From Eledone cirrhosa (Eukaryota), in contig OZ024744.1 in NCBI GenBank assembly GCA_964016885.1, forward strand, positions 12,834,001 through 12,898,000: a stretch of DNA of 64,000 nt, read 5' to 3'. Of the stretch, positions 3,547-43,600 are shown one piece after another. A program made the position numbers and the translations under genes. Positions within the stretch are counted from its first letter, which is position 1. Every line of letters begins with the position of its first letter. Below the pieces are notes generated by a model, which worked only from the letters and a program-made list of their open reading frames with translations, made no database searches and was not told the DNA's origin.

Positions 3547-3551
3547 AAACT

Positions 3552-6271: not shown

Positions 6272-6296
6272 GTTGATATTTTCTTAGGTGCTGTCG

Positions 6297-6328: not shown

Positions 6329-6330
6329 AT

Positions 6331-9343: not shown

Positions 9344-9349
9344 AGAGAG

Positions 9350-9910: not shown

Positions 9911-9918
<8 letters not shown>
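9350..9918 (+). repeat. Inverted pseudo-LTR arm of the PLE
   Basis: Reverse complement of 7641-8209; paired coordinates sum to 17559 at both ends and at the ribozyme. Confidence 0.95.
9708..9752 (+). ncRNA. Minimal type I hammerhead ribozyme, copy 2
   Basis: AGTCA CTGAAGA G GTCACA GAGTG TGTGAC GAAA GGAC TA TGACT; differs from copy 1 only in loop 2. Confidence 0.8.
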
Positions 9919-10758: not shown

Positions 10759-10995
10759 TTGGCTGGTTGGGTGGTTGGGTGGGTGGTTGGTTGGTTGGCT
10801 AATTGGTTGGTTGGTTGTTTGGTTGGTTGGTTTGCTGGTTGGCTGGTTGGGTGGGTGGTTGGTTGGGTGGTTGGTTTGCTGGTTGGTTGGTTAGTTGGTT
10901 GGATGGTTGGTTGGTTGGTTAGTTGGTTAGTTGGTTGGTTGGCTGGTTGGGTGGGTGGTTGGATGAGTGGTTGGTTGGGTGGTTGGTTGGTTGGC

Positions 10996-11029
<34 letters not shown>

Positions 11030-12670: not shown

Positions 12671-12704
<34 letters not shown>

Positions 12705-19032: not shown

Positions 19033-19034
19033 AT

Positions 19035-19069
<35 letters not shown>

Positions 19070-19078
19070 TATATTTAT
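19033..19078 (+). repeat. (ATTT)n microsatellite
   Basis: Read directly. Confidence 0.9.
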
Positions 19079-19260
19079 CTGCATTCCTGCCAAGGAGCTG
19101 AGGTCAGGCTGGGCACCGCCGGCAATATAAATATTCTATATATAGTTGTATAAATAACATTACAAATTGATTATAATTCTTACAGAATGAAAATATAAAC
19201 GCAAATAATATTTACAATATATTATTGCTGAGAACCTTGTAAATTTAATACACAAAAATA

Positions 19261-19610
19261 TTGGTGGCGGAACTCTGGAGAAAGTCGGACATTAACAAGA
19301 CCCTTGGGTGCACTGAATATGAGGTCGTTGAAGGCGTTGCAGAGACGACAAGAATCTATAAAAGAGACCAACTGAGGAAATACAACAACTTAGGAATCGA
19401 CAATTTCGAAACCTAGATAAAACATTGGTGAGGCTCAATAGCCTCAACGTTTTTTAAAAGTTGCTCGAGGCTAGCCAATTTAGATCTGAATATTGAGTTG
19501 AAGGCTTGGACAGTAGATCAAAGAGTCACTCCAGATAAAGCCACTTATTCTCTAAATTGAGAGATCACAGCAGCGATGCTATGGTTATGAGGTTAGAATG
19601 TCACAGGATA
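19261..19610 (-). pseudogene. Decayed fragment of a CRE-like non-LTR retrotransposon RT (post-catalytic/thumb region)
   Basis: Manual translation: ...AAVISQFRE*VALSGVTL*STVQAFNSIFRSKLASLEQLLKNVEAIEPHQCFI*VSKLSIPKLLYFLS, then after a frameshift LCNAFNDLIFSAPKGLVNVRLSPEFRHQ. This resembles the recalled HQA..LL...L.IPKL.Y.LR...FD..I...L..I.NV.L....W.Q pattern of CRE-type RTs. Confidence 0.55.
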
Positions 19611-22600
19611 TCAGAGAGTCACTCCAGTTAAAGCTACTAATTCTCTAAATTGAGAGATCACAACTCCCATACTATGGACATGTGGTTAGAATGTCTCAGT
19701 AGATCAGAGTGTCACTCCAGTTAAAGCTACTCTCTAAATTGAGAGATCACAACTCCCATACTATGGACATGTGGTTGGAATGTCTCAGTAGATCAGAGTG
19801 TCACTCCAGTTAAAGCTACTAATTCTCTAAATTGAGAGATCACAACTCCAATACTATGGACATGTGGTTAGAATGTCTCAGTAGATCAGAGAGTCACTCC
19901 AGTTAAAGCTACTCTGTAAATTGAAACATCACAACTCCAATACTATGGACATGTGGTTTGAATGTCTCAGTAGATCAGAGAGTCACTCCAGTTAAAGCTA
20001 CTAATTCACTAAATTGAGAGATCACAACTCCCATACTATGGACATGTGGTTAGAATGTCTCAGTAGATCAGAGAGTCACTCCAGTTAAAGCCACTCTCTA
20101 AATTGAGAGATCACAACTCCCATACTATGGACATGTGGTTAGAATGTCTCAGTAGATCATAGTGTCACTCCAGTTAAAGCTACTCTCTAAATTGAGAGAT
20201 CTAAACTCCCATACTACAGACATGTGGTTAGAATGTCTCAGTAGATCAGAGAGTCACTCCACTTAAAGCCACTAATTCTCTAAATTGAGAGATCACAACT
20301 CCAATACTACGGACATGTGGTTAGAATGTCTCAGTAGAACAGAGAGTCACTCCAGTTAAAGCCACTAATTCTCTAAATTGAGAGATCACAACTCCCATAC
20401 TATGGACATGTGGTTAGAATGTCTCAGTAGATCAGAGTGTCACTCCAGTTAAAGCTACTCTCTAAATTGAGAGATCACAACTCCAATACAATGGACATGT
20501 GGTTAGAATGTCTCAGTAGATCAGAGAGTCACTCCAGTTAAAGCTACTCTGTAAATTGAGAGATCACAACTCCCAAATAATGTACATGGGGTTAGAACGT
20601 CTCAGTAGATCCGAGAGTCACTCCAGTTAAAGCCACTCTCTAAATTGAGAGATCGCAACTCCCATACTATGGACATGTGGTTAGAATGTCTCAGTAGATC
20701 AGAGTGTCAGTCCAGTTAAAGTTACTCTCTAAATTGAGAGATCACAACTCCCATACTATGGTCATGTGGTTAGAATGTCTCAGTAGATCCGAGTGTCACT
20801 CCAGTTAAAGCCACTCTCTAAATTGAGAGATCACAACTCCCATACTATGGACATGTGGTTAGAATGTCTCAGTAGATCAGAGAGTCACTCCAGTTAAAGC
20901 CACTCACTAAATTGAGAGATCACAACTCCCATACTATGGACATGTGGGTAGAATGTCTCAGTAGATCAGAGAGTCACTCCAGTTAAAGCTACTCTCTAAA
21001 TTGAGAGATCACAACTCCCATACTACGGACATGTAGTTAGAATGTCTCAGTAGATCAGAGTGTGACTCCAGTTAAAGCTACTAGTTCTCTAAATTGAGAG
21101 ATCACAACTCCCATACTATGGACATGTGGTTAGAATGTCTCAGGAGTTCAGAGAGTCACTCCAGTTAAAGCTACTCTCTAAATTGAGAGATCACAACTCC
21201 CATACTATGGACATGTAGTTAGAATGTCTCAGTAGATCAGAGTGTCACTCCAGTTAATGTCACTAATTCTCTAAATTGAGAGATCAAAACTCCAATACTA
21301 CAGACATGTGGTTAGAATGTCTCAGCAGATCAGAGAGTCACTCCAGTTAAAGCAACTCTCTAAATTGAGAGATCACAACTCCCATACTATGGACATGTGG
21401 TTAGAATGTCTCAGGAGATCAGAAAGTCACTCCAGTTCAAGCTACTCTCTAAATTGAGAGATCACTACTCCCATACTATGGTCATGTGGTTAGAATGTCT
21501 CAGTAGATCAGAGTGTCACTCCAGTTAAAGCTACTAATTCTCTAAATTGAGAGATCACATCTCCAATACTATGGACATGGGGTTAGAATGTCTCAGTAGA
21601 TCAGAGAGTCACTCCCTTTAAAGCTACTAGTTCTCTAAATTGAGAGATCACAACTCCCATACTATGGACATGTGGTTAGAATGTCTCAGTAGATCAGAGT
21701 GTCACTCCAGTTAAAGCTACTCTCTAAATTGAGAGATCACAACTCCCATACTATGGTCATGTGGTTAGAATGTCTCAGTAGATCAGAGTGTCACTCCAGT
21801 TAAAGCTACTAATTCTCTAAATTGAGAGATCACATCTCCAATACTATGGACATGGGGTTAGAATGTCTCAGTAGATCAGAGAGTCACTCCCTTTAAAGCT
21901 ACTAGTTCTCTAAATTGAGAGATCACAACTCCCATACTATGGACATGTGGTTAGAATGTCTCAGTAGATCAGAGTGTCACTCCAGTTAAAGCTACTCTCT
22001 AAATTGAGAGATCACAACTCCCATACTATGGTCATGTGGTTAGAATGTCTCAGTAGATCAGAGTGTCACTCCAGTTAAAGCTACTAATTCTCTAAATTGA
22101 GAGATCACAACTCCAATACTATGGACATGGGGTTAGACTGTCTCAGGAGATCAGAAAGTCACTCCAGTTCAAGCTACTCTCTGAATTGAGAGATCACTAC
22201 TCCCATACTATGGTCATGGGGTTAGAATGTCTCAGTAGATGAGAGTGTCACTCCAGTTAAAGCTACTAATACTGTAAATTGAGAGATCACAACTCCAATA
22301 CTATGGACATAGGGGTAAGAATGTCTCAGTAGATCAGAGAGTCACTCCAGTTAAAGCCACTAATTCTCTAAATTGAGAGATCACAACTCTGTTACTATGG
22401 ACATGGGGTTAGAATGTCTCAGTAGATGAGAGTGTCACTCCAGTTAAAGCTACTCTCTAAATTGAGAGATCACAACTCCCAAATAATGTACATGGGGTTA
22501 GAACGTCTCAGTAGATCAGAGAGTCACTCCAGTTAAAGCCACTCTCTAAATTGAGAGATCACAACTCCCATACTATGGTCATGGGGTTAGAATGTCTTAG

Positions 22601-25600
22601 TAGATCCGAGTGTCACTCCAGTTAAAGCCACTCTCTAAATTGAGAGATCACAACTCCCATACTATGGACATGTGGTTAGAATGTCTCAGTAGATCAGAGA
22701 GTCACTCCAGTTAAAGCTACTCTGTAAATTGAGAGATCACAACTCCCAAATAATGAACATGGGGTTAGAACGTCTCAGTAGATCAGAGAGTCACTCCAGT
22801 TAAAGCCACTCTCTAAATTGAGAGATCACAACTCCCATACTATGGTCATGTGGTTAGAATGTCTCAGTAGATCAGAGTGTGACTCCAATTAAAGCTACTA
22901 GTTCTCTAAATTAGGAGATCACAACTCCCATACTATGGACATGTGGTTAGAATGTCTCAGTCGATCAGAGAGTCACTCCAGTTAAAACTACTAATTCTCT
23001 AAATTGAGAGATCACAACTCCGATACTATGGACATGTGGTTAGAATGTCTCAGTAGATCCGAGTGTCACTCCAGTTAAAGCCACTCTCTAAATTGAGAGA
23101 TCACAACTCCCATACTATGGACATGTGGTTAGAATGTCTCAGTAGATCAGAGAGTCACTCCAGTTAAAGCCACTCTCTAAATTGAGAGATCACAACTCCC
23201 ATACTATGGACATGTGGTTAGAATGTCTCAGTAGATCAGAGAGTCACTCCAGTTAAAGCTACTCTTTAAATTGAGAGATCACAACTCCCATACTATGGAC
23301 ATGTAGTTAGAATGTCTCAGTAGATCAGAGTGTGACTCCAATTAAAGCTACTAGTTCTCTAAATTGAGAGATCACAACTCCCATACTATGGACATGTGGT
23401 TAGAATGTCTCAGGAGTTCAGAGAGTCACTCCAGTTAAAGCTACTCTCTAAATTGAGAGATCACAACTCCCATACTATGGACATGTAGTTAGAATGTCTC
23501 AGTAGATCAGAGTGTCACTCCAGTTAATGTCACTAATTCTCTAAATTGAGAGATCAAACTTCCAATACTACAGACATGTGGTTAGAATGTCTCAGCAGAT
23601 CAGAGAGTCAGTCCAGTTAAAGCAACTCTCTAAATTGAGAGATCACAACTCCCATACGATGGACATGTGGTTAGAATGTCTCAGGAGATCAGAAAGTCAC
23701 TCCAGTTCAAGCTACTCTCTAAATTGAGAGATCACTACTCCCATACTATGGTCATGTGGTTAGAATGTCTCAGTAGATCAGAGTGTCACTCCAGTTAAAG
23801 CTACTAATTCTCTAAATTGAGAGATCACATCTCCAATACTATGGACATGGGGTTAGAATGTCTCAGTAGATCAGAGAGTCACTCCCTTTAAAGCTACTAG
23901 TTCTCTAAATTGAGAGATCACAACTCCCATACTATGGACATGTGTTTAGAATGTCTCAGTAGATCAGAGTGTCACTCCAGTTAAAGCTACTCTCTAAATT
24001 GAGAGATCACAAGTCCCATACTATGGACATGTGGTTAGAATGTCTCAGTAGATCAGAGTGTGACTCCAGTTAAAGCTACTAGTTCTCTAAATTGAGAGAT
24101 CACAACTCCAATACTATGGACATGGGGTTAGAATGTCTCAGTAGATCAGAGAGTCACTCCAGTTAAAGCTACTAATTCTCTAAATTGAGAGTTCACAACT
24201 CCCATACTATGGACATGTGGTTAGAATGTCTCAGTAGATCAGAGTGTCACTCCAGTTAAAGCTACTCTCTAAATTGAGAGATCACAACTCCCATACTATG
24301 GACATGTGGTTGGAATGTCTCAGTAGATCAGAGTGTCACTCCAGTTAAAGCTACTAATTCTCTAAATTGAGAGATCACAACTCCAATACTATGGACATGT
24401 GGTTAGAATGTCTCAGTAGATCAGAGAGTCACTCCAGTTAAAGCTACTCTGTAAATTGAAACATCACAACTCCAATACTATGGACATGTGGTTTGAATGT
24501 CTCAGTAGATCAGAGAGTCACTCCAGTTAAAGCTACTAATTCACTAAATTGAGAGATCACAACTCCCATACTATGGACATGTGGTTAGAATGTCTCAGTA
24601 GATCAGAGAGTCACTCCAGTTAAAGCCACTCTCTAAATTGAGAGATCACAACTCCCATACTATGAACATGTGGTTACAATGTCTCAGTAGATCATAGTGT
24701 CACTCCAGTTAAAGCTACTCTCTAAATTGAGAGATCTAAACTCCCATACTATGGTCATGTAGTTAGAATGTCTCAGTAGATCAGAGAGTCACTCCACTTA
24801 AAGCCACTAATTCTCTAAATTGAGAGATCACAACTCCAATACTACGGACATGTGGTTAGAATGTCTCAGTAGATCAGAGAGTCACTCCAGTTAAAGCCAC
24901 TAATTCTCTAAATTGAGAGATCACAACTCCCATACTATGGACATGTGGTTAGAATGTCTCAGTAGATCAGAGTGTCACTCCAGTTAAAGCTACTCTCTAA
25001 ATTGAGAGATCACAACTCCAATACTATGGACATGTGGTTAGAATGTCTCAGTAGATCAGAGAGTCACTCCAGTTAAAGCTACTCTGTAAATTGAGAGATC
25101 ACAACTCCCAAATAATGTACATGGGGTTAGAACGTCTCAGTAGATCAGAGAGTCACTCCAGTTAAAGCCACTCTCTAAATTGAAAGATCACAACTCCCAT
25201 ACTATGGTCATGTGGTTAGAATGTCTTAGTAGATCCGAGTGTCACTCCAGTTAAAGCCACTCTCTAAATTGAGAGATCACAACTCCCATACTATGGACAT
25301 GTGGTTAGAATGTCTCAGTAGATCAGAGAGTCACTCCAGTTAAAGCCACTCTCTAAATTGAGAGATCACAACTCCCATACTATGGACATGTGGTTAGAAT
25401 GTCTCAGTAGATCAGAGAGTCACTCCAGTTAAAGCCACTCTCTAAATTGAGAGATCACAACTCCCATACTATGGCCATGTGGTTAGAATGTCTCAGTAGA
25501 TCAGAGAGTCACTCCAGTTAAAGCTACTCTCTAAATTGAGAGATCACAACTCCCATACTATGGACATGTAGTTAGAATGTCTCAGTAGATCAGAGTGTGA

Positions 25601-28600
25601 CTCCAATTAAAGCTACTAGTTCTCTAAATTAGGAGATCACAACTCCCATACTATGGACATGTGGTTAGAATGTCTCAGTCGATCAGAGAGTCACTCCAGT
25701 TAAAACTACTAATTCTCTAAATTGAGAGATCACAACTCCGATACTATGGACATGTGGTTAGAATGTCTCAGTAGATCCGAGTGTCACTCCAGTTAAAGCC
25801 ACTCTCTAAATTGAGAGATCACAACTCCCATACTATGGACATGTGGTTAGAATGTCTCAGTAGATCAGAGAGTCACTCCAGTTAAAGCCACTCTCTAAAT
25901 TGAGAGATCACAACTCCCATACTATGGACATGTGGTTAGAATGTCTCAGTAGATAAGAGAGTCACTCCAGTTAAAGCTACTCTCTAAATTGAGAGATCAC
26001 AACTCCCATACTATGGACATGTAGTTAGAATGTCTCAGTAGATCAGAGTGTGACTCCAATTAAAGCTACTAGTTCTCTAAATTGAGAGATCACAACTCCC
26101 ATACTATGGACATGTGGTTAGAATGTCTCAGGAGTTCAGAGAGTCACTCCAGTTAAAGCTACTCTCTAAATTGAGAGATCACAACTCCCATACTATGGAC
26201 ATGTAGTTAGAATGTCTCAGTAGATCAGAGTGTCACTCCAGTTAATGTCACTAATTCTCTAAATTGAGAGATCAAACTTCCAATACTACAGACATGTGGT
26301 TAGAATGTCTCAGCAGATCAGAGAGTCAGTCCAGTTAAAGCAACTCTCTAAATTGAGAGATCACAACTCCCATACGATGGACATGTGGTTAGAATGTCTC
26401 AGGAGATCAGAAAGTCACTCCAGTTCAAGCTACTCTCTAAATTGAGAGATCACTACTCCCATACTATGGTCATGTGGTTAGAATGTCTCAGTAGATCAGA
26501 GTGTCACTCCAGTTAAAGCTACTAATTCTCTAAATTGAGAGATCACATCTCCAATACTATGGACATGGGGTTAGAATGTCTCAGTAGATCAGAGAGTCAC
26601 TCCCTTTAAAGCTACTAGTTCTCTAAATTGAGAGATCACAACTCCCATACTATGGACATGTGGTTAGAATGTCTCAGTAGATCAGAGTGTCACTCCAGTT
26701 AAAGCTACTCTCTAAATTGAGAGATCACAAGTCCCATACTATGGACATGTGGTTAGAATGTCTCAGTAGATCAGAGTGTGACTCCAGTTAAAGCTACTAG
26801 TTCTCTAAATTGAGAGATCACAACTCCAATACTATGGACATGGGGTTAGAATGTCTCAGTAGATCAGAGAGTCACTCCAGTTAAAGCTACTAATTCTCTA
26901 AATTGAGAGTTCACACCTCCCATACTATGGACATGTGGTTAGAATGTCTCAGTAGATCAGAGTGTCACTCCAGTTAAAGCTACTCTCTAAATTGAGAGAT
27001 CACAACTCCCATACTATGGACATGTGGTTGGAATGTCTCAGTAGATCAGAGTGTCACTCCAGTTAAAGCTACTAATTCTCTAAATTGAGAGATCACAACT
27101 CCAATACTATGGACATGTGGTTAGAATGTCTCAGTAGATCAGAGAGTCACTCCAGTTAAAGCTACTCTGTAAATTGAGAGATCACAACTCCCAAATAATG
27201 TACATGGGGTTAGAACGTCTCAGTAGATCAGAGAGTCACTCCAGTTAAAGCCACTCTCTAAATTGAGAGATCACAACTCCCATACTATGGTCATGTGGTT
27301 AGAATGTCTTAGTAGATCCGAGTGTCACTCCAGTTAAAGCCACTCTCTAAATTGAGAGATCACAACTCCCATACTATGGACATGTGGTTAGAATGTCTCA
27401 GTAGATCAGAGAGTCACCCCAGTTAAAGCCACTCTCTAAATTGAGAGATCACAACTCCCATACTATGGACATGTGGTTAGAATGTCTCAGTAGATCAGAG
27501 AGTCACTCCAGTTAAAGCCACTCTCTAAATTGAGAGATCACAACTCCCATACTATGGACATGTGGTTAGAATGTCTCAGTAGATCAGAGAGTCACTCCAG
27601 TTAAAGCTACTCTCTAAATTGAGAGATCACAACTCCCATACTATGGACATGTAGTTAGAATGTCTCAGTAGATCAGAGTGTGACTCCAATTAAAGCTACT
27701 AGTTCTCTAAATTAGGAGATCACAACTCCCATACTATGGACATGTGGTTAGAATGTCTCAGTCGATCAGAGAGTCACTCCAGTTAAAACTACTAATTCTC
27801 TAAATTGAGAGATCACAACTCCGATACTATGGACATGTGGTTAGAATGTCTCAGTAGATCCGAGTGTCACTCCAGTTAAAGCCACTCTCTAAATTGAGAG
27901 ATCACAACTCCCATACTATGGACATGTGGTTAGAATGTCTCAGTAGATCAGAGAGTCACTCCAGTTAAAGCCACTCTCTAAATTGAGAGATCACAACTCC
28001 CATACTATGGACATGTGGTTAGAATGTCTCAGTAGATCAGAGAGTCACTCCAGTTAAAGCTACTCTCTAAATTGAGAGATCACAACTCCCATACTATGGA
28101 CATGTAGTTAGAATGTCTCAGTAGATCAGAGTGTGACTCCAATTAAAGCTACTAGTTCTCTAAATTGAGAGATCACAACTCCCATACTATGGACATGTGG
28201 TTAGAATGTCTCAGGAGTTCAGAGAGTCACTCCAGTTAAAGCTACTCTCTAAATTGAGAGATCACAACTCCCATACTATGGACATGTAGTTAGAATGTCT
28301 CAGTAGATCAGAGTGTCACTCCAGTTAATGTCACTAATTCTCTAAATTGAGAGATCAAACTTCCAATACTACAGACATGTGGTTAGAATGTCTCAGCAGA
28401 TCAGAGAGTCAGTCCAGTTAAAGCAACTCTCTAAATTGAGAGATCACAACTCCCATACGATGGACATGTGGTTAGAATGTCTCAGGAGATCAGAAAGTCA
28501 CTCCAGTTCAAGCTACTCTCTAAATTGAGAGATCACTACTCCCATACTATGGTCATGTGGTTAGAATGTCTCAGTAGATCAGAGTGTCACTCCAGTTAAA

Positions 28601-31600
28601 GCTACTAATTCTCTAAATTGAGAGATCACATCTCCAATACTATGGACATGGGGTTAGAATGTCTCAGTAGATCAGAGAGTCACTCCCTTTAAAGCTACTA
28701 GTTCTCTAAATTGAGAGATCACAACTCCCATACTATGGACATGTGGTTAGAATGTCTCAGTAGATCAGAGTGTCACTCCAGTTAAAGCTACTCTCTAAAT
28801 TGAGAGATCACAAGTCCCATACTATGGACATGTGGTTAGAATGTCTCAGTAGATCAGAGTGTGACTCCAGTTAAAGCTACTAGTTCTCTAAATTGAGAGA
28901 TCACAACTCCAATACTATGGACATGGGGTTAGAATGTCTCAGGAGATCAGAGAGTCACTCCAGTTAAAGCTACTAATTCTCTAAATTGAGAGTTCACAAC
29001 TCCCATACTATGGACATGTGGTTAGAATGTCTCAGTAGATCAGAGTGTCACTCCAGTTAAAGCTACTCTCTAAATTGAGAGATCACAACTCCCATACTAT
29101 GGACATGTGGTTGGAATGTCTCAGTAGATCAGAGTGTCACTCCAGTTAAAGCTACTAATTCTCTAAATTGAGAGATCACAACTCCAATACTATGGACATG
29201 TGGTTAGAATGTCTCAGTAGATCAGAGAGTCACTCCAGTTAAAGCTACTCTGTAAATTGAAACATCACAACTCCAATACTATGGACATGTGGTTTGAATG
29301 TCTCAGTAGATCAGAGAGTCACTCCAGTTAAAGCTACTAATTCACTAAATTGAGAGATCACAACTCCCATACTATGGACATGTGGTTAGAATGTCTCAGT
29401 AGATCAGAGAGTCACTCCAGTTAAAGCCACTCTCTAAATTGAGAGATCACAACTCCCATACTATGAACATGTGGTTACAATGTCTCAGTAGATCATAGTG
29501 TCACTCCAGTTAAAGCTACTCTCTAAATTGAGAGATCTAAACTCCCATACTATGGTCATGTAGTTAGAATGTCTCAGTAGATCAGAGAGTCACTCCACTT
29601 AAAGCCACTAATTCTCTAAATTGAGAGATCACAACTCCAATACTACGGACATGTGGTTAGAATGTCTCAGTAGATCAGAGAGTCACTCCAGTTAAAGCCA
29701 CTAATTCTCTAAATTGAGAGATCACAACTCCCATACTATGGACATGTGGTTAGAATGTCTCAGTAGATCAGAGTGTCACTCCAGTTAAAGCTACTCTCTA
29801 AATTGAGAGATCACAACTCCAATACTATGGACATGTGGTTAGAATGTCTCAGTAGATCAGAGAGTCACTCCAGTTAAAGCTACTCTGTAAATTGAGAGAT
29901 CACAACTCCCAAATAATGTACATGGGGTTAGAACGTCTCAGTAGATCAGAGAGTCACTCCAGTTAAAGCCACTCTCTAAATTGAGAGATCACAACTCCCA
30001 TACTATGGTCATGTGGTTAGAATGTCTTAGTAGATCCGAGTGTCACTCCAGTTAAAGCCACTCTCTAAATTGAGAGATCACAACTCCCATACTATGGACA
30101 TGTGGTTAGAATGTCTCAGTAGATCAGAGAGTCACTCCAGTTAAAGCCACTCTCTAAATTGAGAGATCACAACTCCCATACTATGGACATGTGGTTAGAA
30201 TGTCTCAGTAGATCAGAGAGTCACTCCAGTTAAAGCCACTCTCTAAATTGAGAGATCACAACTCCCATACTATGGCCATGTGGTTAGAATGTCTCAGTAG
30301 ATCAGAGAGTCACTCCAGTTAAAGCTACTCTCTAAATTGAGAGATCACAACTCCCATACTATGGACATGTAGTTAGAATGTCTCAGTAGATCAGAGTGTG
30401 ACTCCAATTAAAGCTACTAGTTCTCTAAATTAGGAGATCACAACTCCCATACTATGGACATGTGGTTAGAATGTCTCAGTCGATCAGAGAGTCACTCCAG
30501 TTAAAACTACTAATTCTCTAAATTGAGAGATCACAACTCCGATACTATGGACATGTGGTTAGAATGTCTCAGTAGATCCGAGTGTCACTCCAGTTAAAGC
30601 CACTCTCTAAATTGAGAGATCACAACTCCCATACTATGGACATGTGGTTAGAATGTCTCAGTAGATCAGAGAGTCACTCCAGTTAAAGCCACTCTCTAAA
30701 TTGAGAGATCACAACTCCCATACTATGGACATGTGGTTAGAATGTCTCAGTAGATAAGAGAGTCACTCCAGTTAAAGCTACTCTCTAAATTGAGAGATCA
30801 CAACTCCCATACTATGGACATGTAGTTAGAATGTCTCAGTAGATCAGAGTGTGACTCCAATTAAAGCTACTAGTTCTCTAAATTGAGAGATCACAACTCC
30901 CATACTATGGACATGTGGTTAGAATGTCTCAGGAGTTCAGAGAGTCACTCCAGTTAAAGCTACTCTCTAAATTGAGAGATCACAACTCCCATACTATGGA
31001 CATGTAGTTAGAATGTCTCAGTAGATCAGAGTGTCACTCCAGTTAATGTCACTAATTCTCTAAATTGAGAGATCAAACTTCCAATACTACAGACATGTGG
31101 TTAGAATGTCTCAGCAGATCAGAGAGTCAGTCCAGTTAAAGCAACTCTCTAAATTGAGAGATCACAACTCCCATACGATGGACATGTGGTTAGAATGTCT
31201 CAGGAGATCAGAAAGTCACTCCAGTTCAAGCTACTCTCTAAATTGAGAGATCACTACTCCCATACTATGGTCATGTGGTTAGAATGTCTCAGTAGATCAG
31301 AGTGTCACTCCAGTTAAAGCTACTAATTCTCTAAATTGAGAGATCACATCTCCAATACTATGGACATGGGGTTAGAATGTCTCAGTAGATCAGAGAGTCA
31401 CTCCCTTTAAAGCTACTAGTTCTCTAAATTGAGAGATCACAACTCCCATACTATGGACATGTGGTTAGAATGTCTCAGTAGATCAGAGTGTCACTCCAGT
31501 TAAAGCTACTCTCTAAATTGAGAGATCACAAGTCCCATACTATGGACATGTGGTTAGAATGTCTCAGTAGATCAGAGTGTGACTCCAGTTAAAGCTACTA

Positions 31601-34600
31601 GTTCTCTAAATTGAGAGATCACAACTCCAATACTATGGACATGGGGTTAGAATGTCTCAGTAGATCAGAGAGTCACTCCAGTTAAAGCTACTAATTCTCT
31701 AAATTGAGAGTTCACACCTCCCATACTATGGACATGTGGTTAGAATGTCTCAGTAGATCAGAGTGTCACTCCAGTTAAAGCTACTCTCTAAATTGAGAGA
31801 TCACAAATCCCATACTATGGACATGTGGTTGGAATGTCTCAGTAGATCAGAGTGTCACTCCAGTTAAAGCTACTAATTCTCTAAATTGAGAGATCACAAC
31901 TCCAATACTATGGACATGTGGTTAGAATGTCTCAGTAGATCAGAGAGTCACTCCAGTTAAAGCTACTCTGTAAATTGAGAGATCACAACTCCCAAATAAT
32001 GTACATGGGGTTAGAACGTCTCAGTAGATCAGAGAGTCACTCCAGTTAAAGCCACTCTCTAAATTGAGAGATCACAACTCCCATACTATGGTCATGTGGT
32101 TAGAATGTCTTAGTAGATCCGAGTGTCACTCCAGTTAAAGCCACTCTCTAAATTGAGAGATCACAACTCCCATACTATGGACATGTGGTTAGAATGTCTC
32201 AGTAGATCAGAGAGTCACCCCAGTTAAAGCCACTCTCTAAATTGAGAGATCACAACTCCCATACTATGGACATGTGGTTAGAATGTCTCAGTAGATCAGA
32301 GAGTCACTCCAGTTAAAGCCACTCTCTAAATTGAGAGATCACAACTCCCATACTATGGACATGTGGTTAGAATGTCTCAGTAGATCAGAGAGTCACTCCA
32401 GTTAAAGCTACTCTCTAAATTGAGAGATCACAACTCCCATACTATGGACATGTAGTTAGAATGTCTCAGTAGATCAGAGTGTGACTCCAATTAAAGCTAC
32501 TAGTTCTCTAAATTAGGAGATCACAACTCCCATACTATGGACATGTGGTTAGAATGTCTCAGTCGATCAGAGAGTCACTCCAGTTAAAACTACTAATTCT
32601 CTAAATTGAGAGATCACAACTCCGATACTATGGACATGTGGTTAGAATGTCTCAGTAGATCCGAGTGTCACTCCAGTTAAAGCCACTCTCTAAATTGAGA
32701 GATCACAACTCCCATACTATGGACATGTGGTTAGAATGTCTCAGTAGATCAGAGAGTCACTCCAGTTAAAGCCACTCTCTAAATTGAGAGATCACAACTC
32801 CCATACTATGGACATGTGGTTAGAATGTCTCAGTAGATCAGAGAGTCACTCCAGTTAAAGCTACTCTCTAAATTGAGAGATCACAACTCCCATACTATGG
32901 ACATGTAGTTAGAATGTCTCAGTAGATCAGAGTGTGACTCCAATTAAAGCTACTAGTTCTCTAAATTGAGAGATCACAACTCCCATACTATGGACATGTG
33001 GTTAGAATGTCTCAGGAGTTCAGAGAGTCACTCCAGTTAAAGCTACTCTCTAAATTGAGAGATCACAACTCCCATACTATGGACATGTAGTTAGAATGTC
33101 TCAGTAGATCAGAGTGTCACTCCAGTTAATGTCACTAATTCTCTAAATTGAGAGATCAAACTTCCAATACTACAGACATGTGGTTAGAATGTCTCAGCAG
33201 ATCAGAGAGTCAGTCCAGTTAAAGCAACTCTCTAAATTGAGAGATCACAACTCCCATACGATGGACATGTGGTTAGAATGTCTCAGGAGATCAGAAAGTC
33301 ACTCCAGTTCAAGCTACTCTCTAAATTGAGAGATCACTACTCCCATACTATGGTCATGTGGTTAGAATGTCTCAGTAGATCAGAGTGTCACTCCAGTTAA
33401 AGCTACTAATTCTCTAAATTGAGAGATCACATCTCCAATACTATGGACATGGGGTTAGAATGTCTCAGTAGATCAGAGAGTCACTCCCTTTAAAGCTACT
33501 AGTTCTCTAAATTGAGAGATCACAACTCCCATACTATGGACATGTGGTTAGAATGTCTCAGTAGATCAGAGTGTCACTCCAGTTAAAGCTACTCTCTAAA
33601 TTGAGAGATCACAAGTCCCATACTATGGACATGTGGTTAGAATGTCTCAGTAGATCAGAGTGTGACTCCAGTTAAAGCTACTAGTTCTCTAAATTGAGAG
33701 ATCACAACTCCAATACTATGGACATGGGGTTAGAATGTCTCAGGAGATCAGAGAGTCACTCCAGTTAAAGCTACTAATTCTCTAAATTGAGAGTTCACAA
33801 CTCCCATACTATGGACATGTGGTTAGAATGTCTCAGTAGATCAGAGTGTCACTCCAGTTAAAGCTACTCTCTAAATTGAGAGATCACAACTCCCATACTA
33901 TGGACATGTGGTTGGAATGTCTCAGTAGATCAGAGTGTCACTCCAGTTAAAGCTACTAATTCTCTAAATTGAGAGATCACAACTCCAATACTATGGACAT
34001 GTGGTTAGAATGTCTCAGTAGATCAGAGAGTCACTCCAGTTAAAGCTACTCTGTAAATTGAAACATCACAACTCCAATACTATGGACATGTGGTTTGAAT
34101 GTCTCAGTAGATCAGAGAGTCACTCCAGTTAAAGCTACTAATTCACTAAATTGAGAGATCACAACTCCCATACTATGGACATGTGGTTAGAATGTCTCAG
34201 TAGATCAGAGAGTCACTCCAGTTAAAGCCACTCTCTAAATTGAGAGATCACAACTCCCATACTATGAACATGTGGTTACAATGTCTCAGTAGATCATAGT
34301 GTCACTCCAGTTAAAGCTACTCTCTAAATTGAGAGATCTAAACTCCCATACTATGGTCATGTGGTTAGAATGTCTCAGTAGATCAGAGAGTCACTCCACT
34401 TAAAGCCACTAATTCTCTAAATTGAGAGATCACAACTCCAATACTACGGACATGTGGTTAGAATGTCTCAGTAGATCAGAGAGTCACTCCAGTTAAAGCC
34501 ACTAATTCTCTAAATTGAGAGATCACAACTCCCATACTATGGACATGTGGTTAGAATGTCTCAGTAGATCAGAGTGTCACTCCAGTTAAAGCTACTCTCT

Positions 34601-37600
34601 AAATTGAGAGATCACAACTCCAATACTATGGACATGTGGTTAGAATGTCTCAGTAGATCAGAGAGTCACTCCAGTTAAAGCTACTCTGTAAATTGAGAGA
34701 TCACAACTCCCAAATAATGTACATGGGGTTAGAACGTCTCAGTAGATCAGAGAGTCACTCCAGTTAAAGCCACTCTCTAAATTGAGAGATCACAACTCCC
34801 ATACTATGGTCATGTGGTTAGAATGTCTTAGTAGATCCGAGTGTCACTCCAGTTAAAGCCACTCTCTAAATTGAGAGATCACAACTCCCATACTATGGAC
34901 ATGTGGTTAGAATGTCTCAGTAGATCAGAGAGTCACTCCAGTTAAAGCCACTCTCTAAATTGAGAGATCACAACTCCCATACTATGGACATGTGGTTAGA
35001 ATGTCTCAGTAGATCAGAGAGTCACTCCAGTTAAAGCCACTCTCTAAATTGAGAGATCACAACTCCCATACTATGGACATGTGGTTAGAATGTCTCAGTA
35101 GATCAGAGAGTCACTCCAGTTAAAGCTACTCTCTAAATTGAGAGATCACAACTCCCATACTATGGACATGTAGTTAGAATGTCTCAGTAGATCAGAGTGT
35201 GACTCCAATTAAAGCTACTAGTTCTCTAAATTGAGAGATCACAACTCCCATACTATGGACATGTGGTTAGAATGTCTCAGGAGTTCAGAGAGTCACTCCA
35301 GTTAAAGCTACTCTCTAAATTGAGAGATCACAACTCCCATACTATGGACATGTAGTTAGAATGTCTCAGTAGATCAGAGTGTCACTCCAGTTAATGTCAC
35401 TAATTCTCTAAATTGAGAGATCAAACTTCCAATACTACAGACATGTGGTTAGAATGTCTCAGCAGATCAGAGAGTCAGTCCAGTTAAAGCAACTCTCTAA
35501 ATTGAGAGATCACAACTCCCATACGATGGACATGTGGTTAGAATGTCTCAGGAGATCAGAAAGTCACTCCAGTTCAAGCTACTCTCTAAATTGAGAGATC
35601 ACTACTCCCATACTATGGTCATGTGGTTAGAATGTCTCAGTAGATCAGAGTGTCACTCCAGTTAAAGCTACTAATTCTCTAAATTGAGAGATCACATCTC
35701 CAATACTATGGACATGGGGTTAGAATGTCTCAGTAGATCAGAGAGTCACTCCCTTTAAAGCTACTAGTTCTCTAAATTGAGAGATCACAACTCCCATACT
35801 ATGGACATGTGGTTAGAATGTCTCAGTAGATCAGAGTGTCACTCCAGTTAAAGCTACTCTCTAAATTGAGAGATCACAAGTCCCATACTATGGACATGTG
35901 GTTAGAATGTCTCAGTAGATCAGAGTGTGACTCCAGTTAAAGCTACTAGTTCTCTAAATTGAGAGATCACAACTCCAATACTATGGACATGTGGTTAGAA
36001 TGTCTCAGTCGATCAGAGAGTCACTCCAGTTAAAACTACTAATTCTCTAAATTGAGAGATCACAACTCCGATACTATGGACATGTGGTTAGAATGTCTCA
36101 GTAGATCCGAGTGTCACTCCAGTTAAAGCCACTCTCTAAATTGAGAGATCACAACTCCCATACTATGGACATGTGGTTAGAATGTCTCAGTAGATCAGAG
36201 AGTCACTCCAGTTAAAGCCACTCTCTAAATTGAGAGATCACAACTCCCATACTATGGACATGTGGTTAGAATGTCTCAGTAGATCAGAGAGTCACTCCAG
36301 TTAAAGCTACTCTCTAAATTGAGAGATCACAACTCCCATACTATGGACATGTAGTTAGAATGTCTCAGTAGATCAGAGTGTGACTCCAATTAAAGCTACT
36401 AGTTCTCTAAATTGAGAGATCACAACTCCCATACTATGGACATGTGGTTAGAATGTCTCAGGAGTTCAGAGAGTCACTCCAGTTAAAGCTACTCTCTAAA
36501 TTGAGAGATCACAACTCCCATACTATGGACATGTAGTTAGAATGTCTCAGTAGATCAGAGTGTCACTCCAGTTAATGTCACTAATTCTCTAAATTGAGAG
36601 ATCAAACTTCCAATACTACAGACATGTGGTTAGAATGTCTCAGCAGATCAGAGAGTCAGTCCAGTTAAAGCAACTCTCTAAATTGAGAGATCACAACTCC
36701 CATACGATGGACATGTGGTTAGAATGTCTCAGGAGATCAGAAAGTCACTCCAGTTCAAGCTACTCTCTAAATTGAGAGATCACTACTCCCATACTATGGT
36801 CATGTGGTTAGAATGTCTCAGTAGATCAGAGTGTCACTCCAGTTAAAGCTACTAATTCTCTAAATTGAGAGATCACATCTCCAATACTATGGACATGGGG
36901 TTAGAATGTCTCAGTAGATCAGAGAGTCACTCCCTTTAAAGCTACTAGTTCTCTAAATTGAGAGATCACAACTCCCATACTATGGACATGTGGTTAGAAT
37001 GTCTCAGTAGATCAGAGTGTCACTCCAGTTAAAGCTACTCTCTAAATTGAGAGATCACAAGTCCCATACTATGGACATGTGGTTAGAATGTCTCAGTAGA
37101 TCAGAGTGTGACTCCAGTTAAAGCTACTAGTTCTCTAAATTGAGAGATCACAACTCCAATACTATGGACATGGGGTTAGAATGTCTCAGGAGATCAGAGA
37201 GTCACTCCAGTTAAAGCTACTAATTCTCTAAATTGAGAGTTCACAACTCCCATACTATGGACATGTGGTTAGAATGTCTCAGTAGATCAGAGTGTCACTC
37301 CAGTTAAAGCTACTCTCTAAATTGAGAGATCACAACTCCCATACTATGGACATGTGGTTGGAATGTCTCAGTAGATCAGAGTGTCACTCCAGTTAAAGCT
37401 ACTAATTCTCTAAATTGAGAGATCACAACTCCAATACTATGGACATGTGGTTAGAATGTCTCAGTAGATCAGAGAGTCACTCCAGTTAAAGCTACTCTGT
37501 AAATTGAAACATCACAACTCCAATACTATGGACATGTGGTTTGAATGTCTCAGTAGATCAGAGAGTCACTCCAGTTAAAGCTACTAATTCACTAAATTGA

Positions 37601-40600
37601 GAGATCACAACTCCCATACTATGGACATGTGGTTAGAATGTCTCAGTAGATCAGAGAGTCACTCCAGTTAAAGCCACTCTCTAAATTGAGAGATCACAAC
37701 TCCCATACTATGAACATGTGGTTACAATGTCTCAGTAGATCATAGTGTCACTCCAGTTAAAGCTACTCTCTAAATTGAGAGATCTAAACTCCCATACTAT
37801 GGTCATGTGGTTAGAATGTCTCAGTAGATCAGAGAGTCACTCCACTTAAAGCCACTAATTCTCTAAATTGAGAGATCACAACTCCAATACTACGGACATG
37901 TGGTTAGAATGTCTCAGTAGATCAGAGAGTCACTCCAGTTAAAGCCACTAATTCTCTAAATTGAGAGATCACAACTCCCATACTATGGACATGTGGTTAG
38001 AATGTCTCAGTAGATCAGAGTGTCACTCCAGTTAAAGCTACTCTCTAAATTGAGAGATCACAACTCCAATACTATGGACATGTGGTTAGAATGTCTCAGT
38101 AGATCAGAGAGTCACTCCAGTTAAAGCTACTCTGTAAATTGAGAGATCACAACTCCCAAATAATGTACATGGGGTTAGAACGTCTCAGTAGATCAGAGAG
38201 TCACTCCAGTTAAAGCCACTCTCTAAATTGAGAGATCACAACTCCCATACTATGGTCATGTGGTTAGAATGTCTTAGTAGATCCGAGTGTCACTCCAGTT
38301 AAAGCCACTCTCTAAATTGAGAGATCACAACTCCCATACTATGGACATGTGGTTAGAATGTCTCAGTAGATCAGAGAGTCACTCCAGTTAAAGCCACTCT
38401 CTAAATTGAGAGATCACAACTCCCATACTATGGACATGTGGTTAGAATGTCTCAGTAGATCAGAGAGTCACTCCAGTTAAAGCCACTCTCTAAATTGAGA
38501 GATCACAACTCCCATACTATGGACATGTGGTTAGAATGTCTCAGTAGATCAGAGAGTCACTCCAGTTAAAGCTACTCTCTAAATTGAGAGATCACAACTC
38601 CCATACTATGGACATGTAGTTAGAATGTCTCAGTAGATCAGAGTGTGACTCCAATTAAAGCTACTAGTTCTCTAAATTGAGAGATCACAACTCCCATACT
38701 ATGGACATGTGGTTAGAATGTCTCAGGAGTTCAGAGAGTCACTCCAGTTAAAGCTACTCTCTAAATTGAGAGATCACAACTCCCATACTATGGACATGTA
38801 GTTAGAATGTCTCAGTAGATCAGAGTGTCACTCCAGTTAATGTCACTAATTCTCTAAATTGAGAGATCAAACTTCCAATACTACAGACATGTGGTTAGAA
38901 TGTCTCAGCAGATCAGAGAGTCAGTCCAGTTAAAGCAACTCTCTAAATTGAGAGATCACAACTCCCATACGATGGACATGTGGTTAGAATGTCTCAGGAG
39001 ATCAGAAAGTCACTCCAGTTCAAGCTACTCTCTAAATTGAGAGATCACTACTCCCATACTATGGTCATGTGGTTAGAATGTCTCAGTAGATCAGAGTGTC
39101 ACTCCAGTTAAAGCTACTAATTCTCTAAATTGAGAGATCACATCTCCAATACTATGGACATGGGGTTAGAATGTCTCAGTAGATCAGAGAGTCACTCCCT
39201 TTAAAGCTACTAGTTCTCTAAATTGAGAGATCACAACTCCCATACTATGGACATGTGGTTAGAATGTCTCAGTAGATCAGAGTGTCACTCCAGTTAAAGC
39301 TACTCTCTAAATTGAGAGATCACAAGTCCCATACTATGGACATGTGGTTAGAATGTCTCAGTAGATCAGAGTGTGACTCCAGTTAAAGCTACTAGTTCTC
39401 TAAATTGAGAGATCACAACTCCAATACTATGGACATGGGGTTAGAATGTCTCAGTAGATCAGAGAGTCACTCCAGTTAAAGCTACTAATTCTCTAAATTG
39501 AGAGTTCACAACTCCCATACTATGGACATGTGGTTAGAATGTCTCAGTAGATCAGAGTGTCACTCCAGTTAAAGCTACTAGTTCTCTAAATTAGGAGATC
39601 ACAACTCCCATACTATGGACATGTGGTTGGAATGTCTCAGTAGATCAGAGTGTGACTCCAGTTAAAGCTACTAGTTCTCTAAATTGAGAGATCACAACTC
39701 CAATACTATGGACATGGGGTTAGAATGTCTCAGTAGATCAGAGAGTCACTCCAGTTAAAGCTACTCTCTAAATTGAGAGATCACAACTCCCATACTATGG
39801 ACATGTAGTTAGAATGTCTCAGTAGATCAGAGTGTGACTCCAATTAAAGCTACTAGTTCTCTAAATTAGGAGATCACAACTCCCATACTATGGACATGTG
39901 GTTAGAATGTCTCAGTCGATCAGAGAGTCACTCCAGTTAAAACTACTAATTCTCTAAATTGAGAGATCACAACTCCGATACTATGGACATGTGGTTAGAA
40001 TGTCTCAGTAGATCCGAGTGTCACTCCAGTTAAAGCCACTCTCTAAATTGAGAGATCACAACTCCCATACTATGGACATGTGGTTAGAATGTCTCAGTAG
40101 ATCAGAGTGTCACTCCAGTTAAAGCTACTCTCTAAATTGAGAGATCACAAGTCCCATACTATGGACATGTGGTTAGAATGTCTCAGTAGATCAGAGTGTG
40201 ACTCCAGTTAAAGCTACTAGTTCTCTAAATTGAGAGATCACAACTCCAATACTATGGACATGGGGTTAGAATGTCTCAGTAGATCAGAGAGTCACTCCAG
40301 TTAAAGCTACTAATTCTCTAAATTGAGAGTTCACAACTCCCATACTATGGACATGTGGTTAGAATGTCTCAGTAGATCAGAGTGTCACTCCAGTTAAAGC
40401 TACTAGTTCTCTAAATTAGGAGATCACAACTCCCATACTATGGACATGTGGTTGGAATGTCTCAGTAGATCAGAGTGTGACTCCAGTTAAAGCTACTAGT
40501 TCTCTAAATTGAGAGATCACAACTCCAATACTATGGACATGGGGTTAGAATGTCTCAGTAGATCAGAGAGTCACTCCAGTTAAAGCTACTCTCTAAATTG

Positions 40601-43600
40601 AGAGATCACAACTCCCATACTATGGACATGTAGTTAGAATGTCTCAGTAGATCAGAGTGTGACTCCAATTAAAGCTACTAGTTCTCTAAATTAGGAGATC
40701 ACAACTCCCATACTATGGACATGTGGTTAGAATGTCTCAGTCGATCAGAGAGTCACTCCAGTTAAAACTACTAATTCTCTAAATTGAGAGATCACAACTC
40801 CGATACTATGGACATGTGGTTAGAATGTCTCAGTAGATCCGAGTGTCACTCCAGTTAAAGCCACTCTCTAAATTGAGAGATCACAACTCCCATACTATGG
40901 ACATGTGGTTAGAATGTCTCAGTAGATCAGAGAGTCACTCCAGTTAAAGCCACTCTCTAAATTGAGAGATCACAACTCCCATACTATGGACATGTGGTTA
41001 GAATGTCTCAGTAGATCAGAGAGTCACTCCAGTTAAAGCTACTCTCTAAATTGAGAGATCACAACTCCCATACTATGGACATGTAGTTAGAATGTCTCAG
41101 GAGTTCAGAGAGTCACTCCAGTTAAAGCTACTCTCTAAATTGAGAGATCACAACTCCCATACTATGGACATGTAGTTAGAATGTCTCAGTAGATCAGAGT
41201 GTCACTCCAGTTAATGTCACTAATTCTCTAAATTGAGAGATCAAACTTCCAATACTACAGACATGTGGTTAGAATGTCTCAGCAGATCAGAGAGTCAGTC
41301 CAGTTAAAGCAACTCTCTAAATTGAGAGATCACAACTCCCATACGATGGACATGTGGTTAGAATGTCTCAGGAGATCAGAAAGTCACTCCAGTTCAAGCT
41401 ACTCTCTAAATTGAGAGATCACTACTCCCATACTATGGTCATGTGGTTAGAATGTCTCAGTAGATCAGAGTGTGACTCCAGTTAAAGCTACTAGTTCTCT
41501 AAATTGAGAGATCACAACTCCAATACTATGGACATGGGGTTAGAATGTCTCAGTAGATCAGAGAGTCACTCCAGTTAAAGCTACTAATTCTCTAAATTGA
41601 GAGTTCACAACTCCCATACTATGGACATGTGGTTAGAATGTCTCAGTAGATCAGAGTGTCACTCCAGTTAAAGCTACTCTCTAAATTGAGAGATCACAAC
41701 TCCCATACTATGGACATGTGGTTGGAATGTCTCAGTAGATCAGAGTGTCACTCCAGTTAAAGCTACTAATTCTCTAAATTGAGAGATCACAACTCCAATA
41801 CTATGGACATGTGGTTAGAATGTCTCAGTAGATCAGAGAGTCACTCCAGTTAAAGCTACTCTGTAAATTGAAACATCACAACTCCAATACTATGGACATG
41901 TGGTTTGAATGTCTCAGTAGATCAGAGAGTCACTCCAGTTAAAGCTACTAATTCACTAAATTGAGAGATCACAACTCCCATACTATGGACATGTGGTTAG
42001 AATGTCTCAGTAGATCAGAGAGTCACTCCAGTTAAAGCCACTCTCTAAATTGAGAGATCACAACTCCCATACTATGAACATGTGGTTACAATGTCTCAGT
42101 AGATCATAGTGTCACTCCAGTTAAAGCTACTCTCTAAATTGAGAGATCTAAACTCCCATACTATGGTCATGTAGTTAGAATGTCTCAGTAGATCAGAGAG
42201 TCACTCCACTTAAAGCCACTAATTCTCTAAATTGAGAGATCACAACTCCAATACTACGGACATGTGGTTAGAATGTCTCAGTAGATCAGAGAGTCACTCC
42301 AGTTAAAGCCACTAATTCTCTAAATTGAGAGATCACAACTCCCATACTATGGACATGTGGTTAGAATGTCTCAGTAGATCAGAGTGTCACTCCAGTTAAA
42401 GCTACTCTCTAAATTGAGAGATCACAACTCCAATACTATGGACATGTGGTTAGAATGTCTCAGTAGATCAGAGAGTCACTCCAGTTAAAGCTACTCTGTA
42501 AATTGAGAGATCACAACTCCCAAATAATGTACATGGGGTTAGAACGTCTCAGTAGATCAGAGAGTCACTCCAGTTAAAGCCACTCTCTAAATTGAGAGAT
42601 CACAACTCCCATACTATGGTCATGTGGTTAGAATGTCTTAGTAGATCCGAGTGTCACTCCAGTTAAAGCCACTCTCTAAATTGAGAGATCACAACTCCCA
42701 TACTATGGACATGTGGTTAGAATGTCTCAGTAGATCAGAGAGTCACTCCAGTTAAAGCCACTCTCTAAATTGAGAGATCACAACTCCCATACTATGGACA
42801 TGTGGTTAGAATGTCTCAGTAGATCAGAGAGTCACTCCAGTTAAAGCCACTCTCTAAATTGAGAGATCACAACTCCCATACTATGGACATGTGGTTAGAA
42901 TGTCTCAGTAGATCAGAGAGTCACTCCAGTTAAAGCTACTCTCTAAATTGAGAGATCACAACTCCCATACTATGGACATGTAGTTAGAATGTCTCAGTAG
43001 ATCAGAGTGTGACTCCAATTAAAGCTACTAGTTCTCTAAATTAGGAGATCACAACTCCCATACTATGGACATGTGGTTAGAATGTCTCAGTCGATCAGAG
43101 AGTCACTCCAGTTAAAACTACTAATTCTCTAAATTGAGAGATCACAACTCCGATACTATGGACATGTGGTTAGAATGTCTCAGTAGATCCGAGTGTCACT
43201 CCAGTTAAAGCCACTCTCTAAATTGAGAGATCACAACTCCCATACTATGGACATGTGGTTAGAATGTCTCAGTAGATCAGAGTGTCACTCCAGTTAAAGC
43301 TACTAGTTCTCTAAATTAGGAGATCACAACTCCCATACTATGGACATGTGGTTGGAATGTCTCAGTAGATCAGAGTGTGACTCCAGTTAAAGCTACTAGT
43401 TCTCTAAATTGAGAGATCACAACTCCAATAATATGGACATGGGGTTAGAATGTCTCAGTAGATCAGAGAGTCACTCCAGTTAAAGCTACTCTCTAAATTG
43501 AGAGATCACAACTCCCATACTATGGACATGTAGTTAGAATGTCTCAGTAGATCAGAGTGTGACTCCAATTAAAGCTACTAGTTCTCTAAATTAGGAGATC

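What the first reader, a model, noticed from the sequence alone, without database searches (positions are those of the whole stretch)
19261..19740. Satellite array apparently born from a retrotransposon RT coding fragment, with the progenitor junction preserved
Seen: the first, most divergent monomer (19511-19610) has no boundary with the flanking unique DNA. On the minus strand it reads in one frame: HSIAAVISQFRE*VALSGVTL*STVQAFNSIFRSKLASLEQLLKNVEAIEPHQCF..LSIPKLLYFL. Just upstream it gives SCDILT, similar to the KCE-I/L motif that follows the RT catalytic region. Known: the IPKL.Y.L and following motifs resemble CRE-clade non-LTR RTs. Inference: a ~90-bp piece of this RT gene was tandemly amplified into the >44-kb array, so this could be the founding locus of the satellite family.
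Basis: partly seen in the sequence, partly recalled or inferred. Interest (0 to 1): 0.75.

Follow-up and report, generated by a model that had tools for sequence, protein, structure and literature searches.

The report
Megabase satellite from LINE coding piece
This roughly 1.1-million-base satellite is built from a 93-base piece of a LINE retrotransposon's protein-coding region and ends in that LINE's own tail; it likely grew in place from one inserted copy, while the reverse-transcriptase fragment at its left edge belongs to a different retrotransposon that did not supply the repeat.

Summary
Right idea, wrong element. 19261-19515 is a decayed fragment of a CRE-like non-LTR element (minus strand). 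None of 29 other copies matches the window past 19515, and their continuation resembles the monomer no better than shuffled DNA. The monomer reads on the PLUS strand as 31 codons of an RTE-type LINE ORF (65% identical to residues 953-983 of an intact endonuclease+RT protein). The array spans about 1.13 Mb (~12,700 units) and its far end runs in register into an RTE 3' end with a (GAA)n tail. Monomer 1 alone, of 3,196, keeps two RTE-type bases, which fits founding at this end. The CRE/array joint is sharp, at a 5-base microhomology (CAGTA). A 2.5-kb array 357 kb away has the same monomers but a different RTE tail, so units moved between LINE copies. The same LINE segment forms arrays with units of 65-123 bp elsewhere, including an independent 170-kb array. 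LINE-ORF-derived satellites are known; this scan already noted this RTE behaviour at other loci of this genome.

The parts
19033..19078 (-). (ATTT)n run; likely the 3' tail of the CRE-like copy (inferred from its position)
   Evidence: lies just beyond the 3'-end match
19129..19261 (-). 3' end of the CRE-like copy; about 1 kb of the element is missing between this part and the RT piece
   Evidence: L002 369-499 matches 19129-19261 and L002 1501-1757 matches 19262-19515
19261..19515 (-). Decayed fragment of a CRE-like non-LTR element, region just after the RT core, about 75% identical to dispersed copies
19511..19515 (.). CAGTA shared by the CRE-like element and the satellite monomer joint (microhomology at the junction)
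   Evidence: CAGTA at this place in 20 of 29 other copies; the sequence itself; junction bridged without differences by a 460-nt read contig
19514..19606 (+). Monomer 1, 93 bp, divergent boundary unit; reads IKESLQIKPLIL*IERSQQRCYGYEVRMSQ in the RTE frame; keeps RTE-type G at unit positions 57 and 62
19607..19699 (+). Monomer 2, 93 bp; starts with the RTE-type G instead of the array's T
19514..64000 (+). Left end of an 89/93-bp satellite array derived from 31 codons of an RTE-type LINE ORF; continues to G000:C28:13,987,195 and ends in an RTE 3' end with (GAA)n

Best explanation
The array is a tandem run of a 93-bp coding segment of an RTE-type LINE that ends in that LINE's 3' end, and it likely grew in place from one 5'-truncated LINE copy. 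Shown: monomer identity and strand, the in-register LINE tail at the far end, the sharp joint with an unrelated CRE-like fragment at the near end, and the same segment duplicated in many other copies of the LINE. Inferred steps: (1) a decayed RTE copy acquired a head-to-tail duplication of the segment at a short imperfect repeat (CTCGGA upstream, CTCAGGA downstream), made on the spot or copied from another RTE copy; (2) unequal exchange or break repair expanded it to about 12,700 units, while new variants (a 4-bp deletion giving 89 bp, T at position 1, stops) swept most of the array and left the left edge least homogenised; (3) a microhomology-guided event (5' joining at insertion or a later deletion) fused it head-to-head to an older CRE-like fragment; (4) ectopic recombination copied about 28 units into a second RTE copy 357 kb away. 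No function is shown; the units are non-coding.
For: Monomers 1 and 2 align to P0024 residues 950-983 at 64-65% (E about 1e-10 to 4e-10 against a 0.4-kb subject); the last monomer reads on into residues up to 1043 (E 4e-14). P0024 has endonuclease and RT domains in one ORF. 7 of 10 long host copies of this LINE hold the segment once, 79-92% identical. The far end runs into the LINE 3' end and (GAA)n. The array-specific joint occurs 4,900 times on + and 13 times on - in the genome; extrapolation from 292 kb read predicts 4,928, and all 13 lie in the small array, so this variant is confined to these two arrays. The LINE-length 93-bp unit makes up 27-48% of units in the first 100 kb and 0-7% beyond. 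Monomer 1 is the only one of 3,196 with both 57G and 62G. Big and small arrays have monomers 92.5-93.8% alike, as within arrays, but tails only 83.5% alike, ranking 28 and 16 of 31. An independent 170-kb array on C2 has LINE sequence in register at both ends and monomers about 80% alike to these.
Against: Monomer 1 is not closer to the LINE overall (82.8% against an array mean of 86.9%) and has the LINE state at only 2 of 8 diagnostic sites. No upstream LINE sequence and no target-site duplication were found at the left end, and no CRE remainder in 12.8 kb beyond the tail, so the original insertion boundary is not seen. The last monomer before the tail is fully satellite-type, so no site links this tail to these monomers; as two tails carry the same monomers, at least one is not the founder. 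G-starting monomers deeper in the array carry few other LINE-type states and give no support for polarity. Only about 26% of the array was read. The 30 comparison tails were chosen by similarity to one copy, which inflates their mutual identity.
Confidence: 0.7

Rival explanations
1. The satellite was born in another RTE copy (the small array 357 kb away, or a lost locus) and was copied into this RTE copy, where it then expanded; the tail here is a landing pad, not the founder.
For: Two different tails carry the same monomers. Both arrays start at the same register, G|TAGATC, without upstream LINE sequence. The small array mixes 89- and 93-bp units like the left end of the big one.
Against: The small array's first unit is fully satellite-type, whereas monomer 1 here keeps LINE-type bases and unit 2 keeps the G start. 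No third locus with this variant was seen.
Confidence: 0.17
2. An active source LINE already carried the 93-bp duplication and inserted it here by retrotransposition; only the later growth was local.
For: The same 93-bp joint occurs at 18 other loci among the first 100 of 157 matches and on C2; the 123-bp joint has 1,426 exact matches. All fully read arrays keep the 3' tail side.
Against: Joint-bearing loci are not spread like the LINE: the first 100 of 2,272 matches to the intact segment are all single copies on C1, while no 123-bp or 93-bp joint is listed on C1; 7 of the 18 loci lie within 3.6 Mb of C19 and 5 within 9 Mb of C6. At least five unit lengths exist.
Confidence: 0.1
3. One reading: the monomer is a piece of the CRE-like RT gene, amplified from the junction at 19511.
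For: The minus-strand reading has no frameshift across the joint; the joint shares CAGTA.
Against: No other copy continues into monomer-like sequence. Three CRE-like proteins give no hit to the monomers at E below 0.2. The monomer matches an RTE-type ORF on the other strand.
Confidence: 0.01
4. The CRE/array joint or the array's length is an assembly artefact.
For: The far-end joint and most of the array were not checked against long reads.
Against: A 460-nt contig from reads spans 19179-19638 with no difference (possibly the assembly's own sample). No N in the 220 kb fetched beside and at the far end. 549 raw reads of another sample of the species lie on the far-end stretch at 97% or better, most on the monomers.
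Confidence: 0.02

Closest known systems
Satellites related to LINE ORF2: PROsat (Phodopus, L1), HinfI repeat (chicken, CR1), Pvc 20 (seal, L1); as listed in PMC9659126 (passages and section 2.2 read)
   Same: Satellite monomer related to the coding region of a non-LTR retrotransposon.
   Different: Here the whole monomer is LINE coding sequence, the donor is RTE-type, the array is still joined in register to the LINE tail, and copies with 1, 2, tens and thousands of units coexist.
Lathyrus sativus satellites grown from short arrays inside LTR retrotransposons (PMC7004042, abstract read)
   Same: Short tandem arrays inside dispersed retrotransposon copies, a few of which expand into long arrays.
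   Different: There the carriers are LTR elements; here a LINE coding segment, with several unit lengths (65, 93, 99, about 106-111, 123 bp) and signs that the duplications arise or spread after insertion.
RTE-clade LINEs (PMC13295347, passages); Rex3 of teleosts (PMC6274825, passages)
   Same: AP-type endonuclease and RT, microsatellite-like 3' tail; nearest database proteins include fish RT proteins at 56-66% over the query's matched part.
   Different: Tail is (GAA)n without the GATG/GATC repeats named as the Rex3 signature; no tree with named references was built. The resemblance to Rex3/Expander is recalled, not tested.
CRE-clade non-LTR elements (for the flanking fragment)
   Same: RT followed by a C-terminal CxC..H..C, RH, KRPDG motif set of a restriction-like endonuclease (motifs recalled; seen in L026 and P0001); no AP endonuclease domain in P0001.
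   Different: Carries an N-terminal PHD finger; clade not tested by phylogeny; the window copy is a broken fragment.

Membership tests
   0 of 29 copies extend past 19515; score 7.4 against 7.1 shuffled
Monomer derived from the RTE-type LINE | Monomer colinear inside the ORF of unduplicated copies | tested here: met
   P0024 953-983, 65%; 7 of 10 long host copies hold it once
Monomer derived from the RTE-type LINE | Array joined in register to the LINE's own flanking sequence | tested here: met
   3' side met; 5' side absent here but present in the C2 array
RTE-clade LINE (donor) | AP endonuclease and RT in one ORF | tested here: met
   P0024, PF03372/PF14529 + PF00078; host copies match it at about 43-70% from the endonuclease to the C-terminus, nearly all with stops
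RTE-clade LINE (donor) | No C-terminal cysteine-histidine motif (feature recalled); short microsatellite-like tail | tested here: met
   no CxxC..H..C match in P0024; (GAA)n tails
RTE-clade LINE (donor) | RT groups with named RTE elements in a tree | not testable with these tools
   no library of named elements on hand
RTE-clade LINE (donor) | Target-site duplication around this copy | tested here: not met
   only chance 6-mers shared between the two flanks; the original 5' end may be lost
Rex3 | (GAA)2 followed by GATG/GATC tandem tail (PMC6274825) | tested here: not met
   tails seen are (GAA)n with GAG or GCA variants
CRE clade (flanking fragment) | RT plus C-terminal restriction-like endonuclease motifs, no AP endonuclease | tested here: met
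   L026 CRCGRSLDSAGLHGLSC, RHTEL, KRPDG; P0001; motif set recalled
CRE clade (flanking fragment) | RT groups with named CRE elements | not testable with these tools
   no named references; database relatives are unnamed or hypothetical proteins
Satellite DNA | Long homogenised head-to-tail array | tested here: met
   about 1.13 Mb; monomers 95% to the majority on average
Centromeric satellite | CENP-A occupancy | not testable with these tools
   no chromatin data

The most novel reading that the evidence does not exclude
A 125-bp window of a dead LINE's coding region is a standing satellite nursery: duplications arise after insertion, travel between neighbouring LINE copies by ectopic recombination, and one copy here grew 12,700-fold to 1.13 Mb and has already seeded a daughter array in another LINE copy. 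The T that now starts about 95% of its monomers may have been captured from the neighbouring CRE element at the CAG microhomology, which would make this junction part of the monomer's origin after all.
Probability: 0.4. Interest if true: 0.68.

Novelty: new variant of a known kind. Interest (0 to 1): 0.52.

Why it matters
How satellites start and how they reach new sites is usually inferred from faint similarity. Here the donor, the unit boundaries, a frozen edge monomer, the attached LINE tail, a daughter array on a different tail and an independent 170-kb replicate can all be read in one genome. This makes birth in place, spread by ectopic recombination and rates of homogenisation testable. 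No function is shown, and the general route from retrotransposon to satellite is established.

Tried and rejected
CRE origin of the monomer: rejected. A CRE remainder or target-site duplication beyond the far end, and upstream RTE sequence in the 19.5 kb left of the array: none found; likewise 9.3 kb upstream of the small array. G-start enrichment near the left end as a sign of age: rejected, since these units are mostly 89-bp, recur with a period of about 2.7 kb and lack other LINE states. A LINE subfamily starting GTAGATC as source of the T: only 33 matches against 2,272 for GGAGATC, in mixed contexts. Coding role: 0 of 201 93-bp units in the window are stop-free in the LINE frame (the count used the wrong frame and is not used). 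Back-splicing as source of the units: the joints lack GT donors (sequence inspection). Arrays only on small chromosomes: too strong, C2-C4 and C7 have some. The far-end joint was not bridged by any listed contig; a hole proves nothing. No RNA holder listed. Pfam finds no family above cut-off in the short decayed RT and RTE fragments. Six paper searches listed no title on an RTE-ORF-derived satellite; only open-access full text was searched and no supplements were opened.

Full report
Setting. The window is G000:C28:12,834,001-12,898,000 of a 3.0-Gb genome. A tandem array with 89- and 93-bp units runs from about 19511 to the window's end. I did not identify the host.

The flank. 19261-19515 is not unique DNA: 39 other places match it at 74-78% among 40 scored candidates. 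I fetched 29. Their ORFs hold a PHD finger, an RT with QQGDPLGP and YLDD, and C-terminal CRCG..H..C, RH and KRPDG motifs (L026; Pfam). Their database relatives are RT proteins, the best with PHD + RT (P0001). This is a CRE-like element; the clade label rests on recalled motifs, not on a tree. The window copy also lacks about 1 kb between 19261 and its 3' end.

The match to the 29 copies ends at 19515 in 25, earlier in 4 and later in none. The copies go on with a sequence that reads ..AWCSFGAPVTDQAF... Their next 93 bases score 7.4 on average against the monomer, shuffled controls 7.1, whereas 8 RTE segments score 36-66. The SCDILT motif lies in another frame, inside the satellite. The joint is sharp and sits on CAGTA, which 20 of 29 CRE-like copies have at this place and which is also the satellite's unit joint. 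A 460-nt read contig spans it without differences (perhaps the assembly's own sample).

The true donor. One CRE locus happened to contain 52 bp of monomer inside another repeat. On the plus strand the monomer reads I(K/R)ESLQ..L.L.IERSQL.YYGHVVRMSQ. It aligns at 63-65% to residues 950-983 of P0024, a 1,047-residue endonuclease + RT protein. Decayed host copies match P0024 over its length (73 matches); 7 of the 10 fetched hold the segment once, 79-92% identical to a 93-bp monomer. So the unit is 31 codons from the C-terminal part of an RTE-type LINE ORF. The 93-bp form is the LINE's length; the 89-bp form has a 4-bp deletion. The tail is (GAA)n, not the Rex3 signature described in PMC6274825 (passages).

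Extent and far end. The array is continuous over the next 120 kb, present in 16 of 16 spot samples from 13.03 to 13.90 Mb and absent from 4 of 4 samples from 14.0 to 14.3 Mb, and ends at C28:13,987,195: about 1.13 Mb, some 12,700 units. The last monomer runs in register into the LINE's 3' end and (GAA)n tail. The array-specific joint with T occurs 4,900 times on the plus strand of the genome and 13 times on the minus strand; the listing starts at this array. The 292 kb I read predict 4,928 for this array alone, and all 13 minus matches lie in a small array at C28:14,344,148-14,346,684. This variant is thus confined to two arrays.

Was it born here? For: 93-bp units are 27-48% of units in the first 100 kb and 0-7% beyond. 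Monomer 1 is the only one of 3,196 with LINE-type G at both positions 57 and 62, and unit 2 starts with the LINE-type G. Against or open: monomer 1 has the LINE state at only 2 of 8 diagnostic sites and is no closer to the LINE overall; G-starts deeper in the array look like back-mutations; no upstream LINE sequence, CRE remainder or target-site duplication was found. I put birth in place at about 0.7.

Spread between LINE copies. The small array 357 kb beyond the far end is inverted, has about 28 units, and also ends in an RTE 3' end with (GAA)n. Its monomers are as alike to the big array's as these are to each other (92.5-93.8%), but its tail is only 83.5% alike over 103 aligned bases and ranks 28 and 16 of 31 (the 30 comparison tails were selected by similarity to one copy). 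Flanks beyond the tails do not match. Monomers therefore moved from one LINE copy to another; ectopic recombination is the inferred route, and the direction is inferred from monomer 1. Why both arrays begin at the same register is unexplained.

A recurrent nursery. Of 16 loci picked because they looked repeated, 15 hold tandem copies of overlapping parts of one 125-bp LINE segment, with units of 65, 93, 99, about 106-111 or 123 bp. The 123-bp joint has 1,426 exact matches. The 93-bp G-type joint marks 18 other loci among the first 100 of 157 matches, clustered on C19 and C6, and an array on C2 of about 170 kb (12,186,294-12,356,483; 9 of 9 inner spot samples positive) with LINE sequence in register on both sides and its own variants, about 80% alike to the C28 units. 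The intact segment is common on C1 (first 100 of 2,272 matches, all single), yet no 123- or 93-bp joint is listed there; C2 has 6 listed 123-bp loci in 416 Mb, C8 and C9 have 13 in 117 Mb (sizes). This favours origin or spread after insertion over retrotransposition of a ready-made array. The lists are cut at 100 rows, so the test is partial.

Mechanism. Shown: donor, strand, register, both ends, the daughter array, the replicate. Inferred: duplication at short imperfect repeats (CTCGGA / CTCAGGA for 93 bp, GAATTG for 65 bp; little for 123 bp), growth by unequal exchange or break repair, microhomology-guided fusion to the older CRE-like fragment, and conversion into a neighbouring LINE copy. 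Open: T at position 1 of about 95% of monomers (3,028 of 3,194) is rare in the LINE (33 against 2,272) and is the base the CRE flank supplies after CAG. It may be a mutation that later guided a deletion, or a base captured from the flank. The units carry stops and are not coding.

What is known. Satellites related to LINE ORF2 are listed in PMC9659126 (passages and section 2.2) and PMC6947457 (passages); that section finds no conclusive evidence that particular parts of elements are preferred, which the pattern here speaks to. Growth of satellites from short arrays inside retrotransposons is shown in PMC7004042 (abstract). Six searches (listings only) gave no title on an RTE-ORF-derived satellite. 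This scan's own unreviewed notes report the same behaviour of RTE LINEs at other loci of this genome; none was listed near this window or for this sequence.

Verdict. Observation partly confirmed; interpretation partly supported: a retrotransposon-born satellite and a likely founding locus, but from another element, on the other strand, with the progenitor joint at the far end. New variant of a known kind; interest 0.52.

Noticed in passing
window 848-6800 (direct repeats starting at 848 and 6331; ORFs 2308-3609 and 3993-6023, minus strand): LTR retrotransposon with protease, RT, RNase H and integrase domains in Ty3/gypsy order and terminal repeats 100% identical over 300 nt, so a recent insertion.
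   Followed up: partly
window 7641-9918: 569-nt perfect inverted repeat (7641-8209 / 9350-9918) around a 374-codon stop-free frame (8072-9196, minus) whose C-terminus looks like a GIY-YIG endonuclease (VYIGET motif, recalled), Penelope-like; no Pfam hit at E 0.001.
   Followed up: partly
window 10759-18105: 7.3-kb degenerate (TTGG)n array with extreme strand skew, 1.4 kb from the satellite's left end.
   Followed up: no
G000:C2:12,186,065-12,356,483 (L143, L144, L163-L165): Independent 170-kb array of the same 93-bp unit with LINE sequence in register at both ends: the cleaner example of a preserved progenitor junction.
   Followed up: partly
G000:C28:32,199,419 onward (at least 29 kb): Another long array bearing the 93-bp G-type joint on the same contig; not fetched.
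   Followed up: no
L159 (G000:C2:397,660,755-397,662,370): 84-bp unit derived from the 123-bp unit by an internal deletion.
   Followed up: partly
window 20000-40000: Higher-order period of about 2.7 kb in the 89/93-bp mosaic, changing further along the array.
   Followed up: partly
runs X4, X5, X6 laid on window 19610-19700 and L131:7016-7134: Short contigs (39-101 nt) from runs labelled as other organisms match the array-specific monomer, some with the 4-bp deletion, with 0-1 differences at low depth; shared satellite or carry-over, not resolved.
   Followed up: no
L058 (G000:C19:23,589,298-23,589,858): All 6 complete 93-bp units of this small array are stop-free in the LINE frame, as expected of a young in-frame duplication.
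   Followed up: partly
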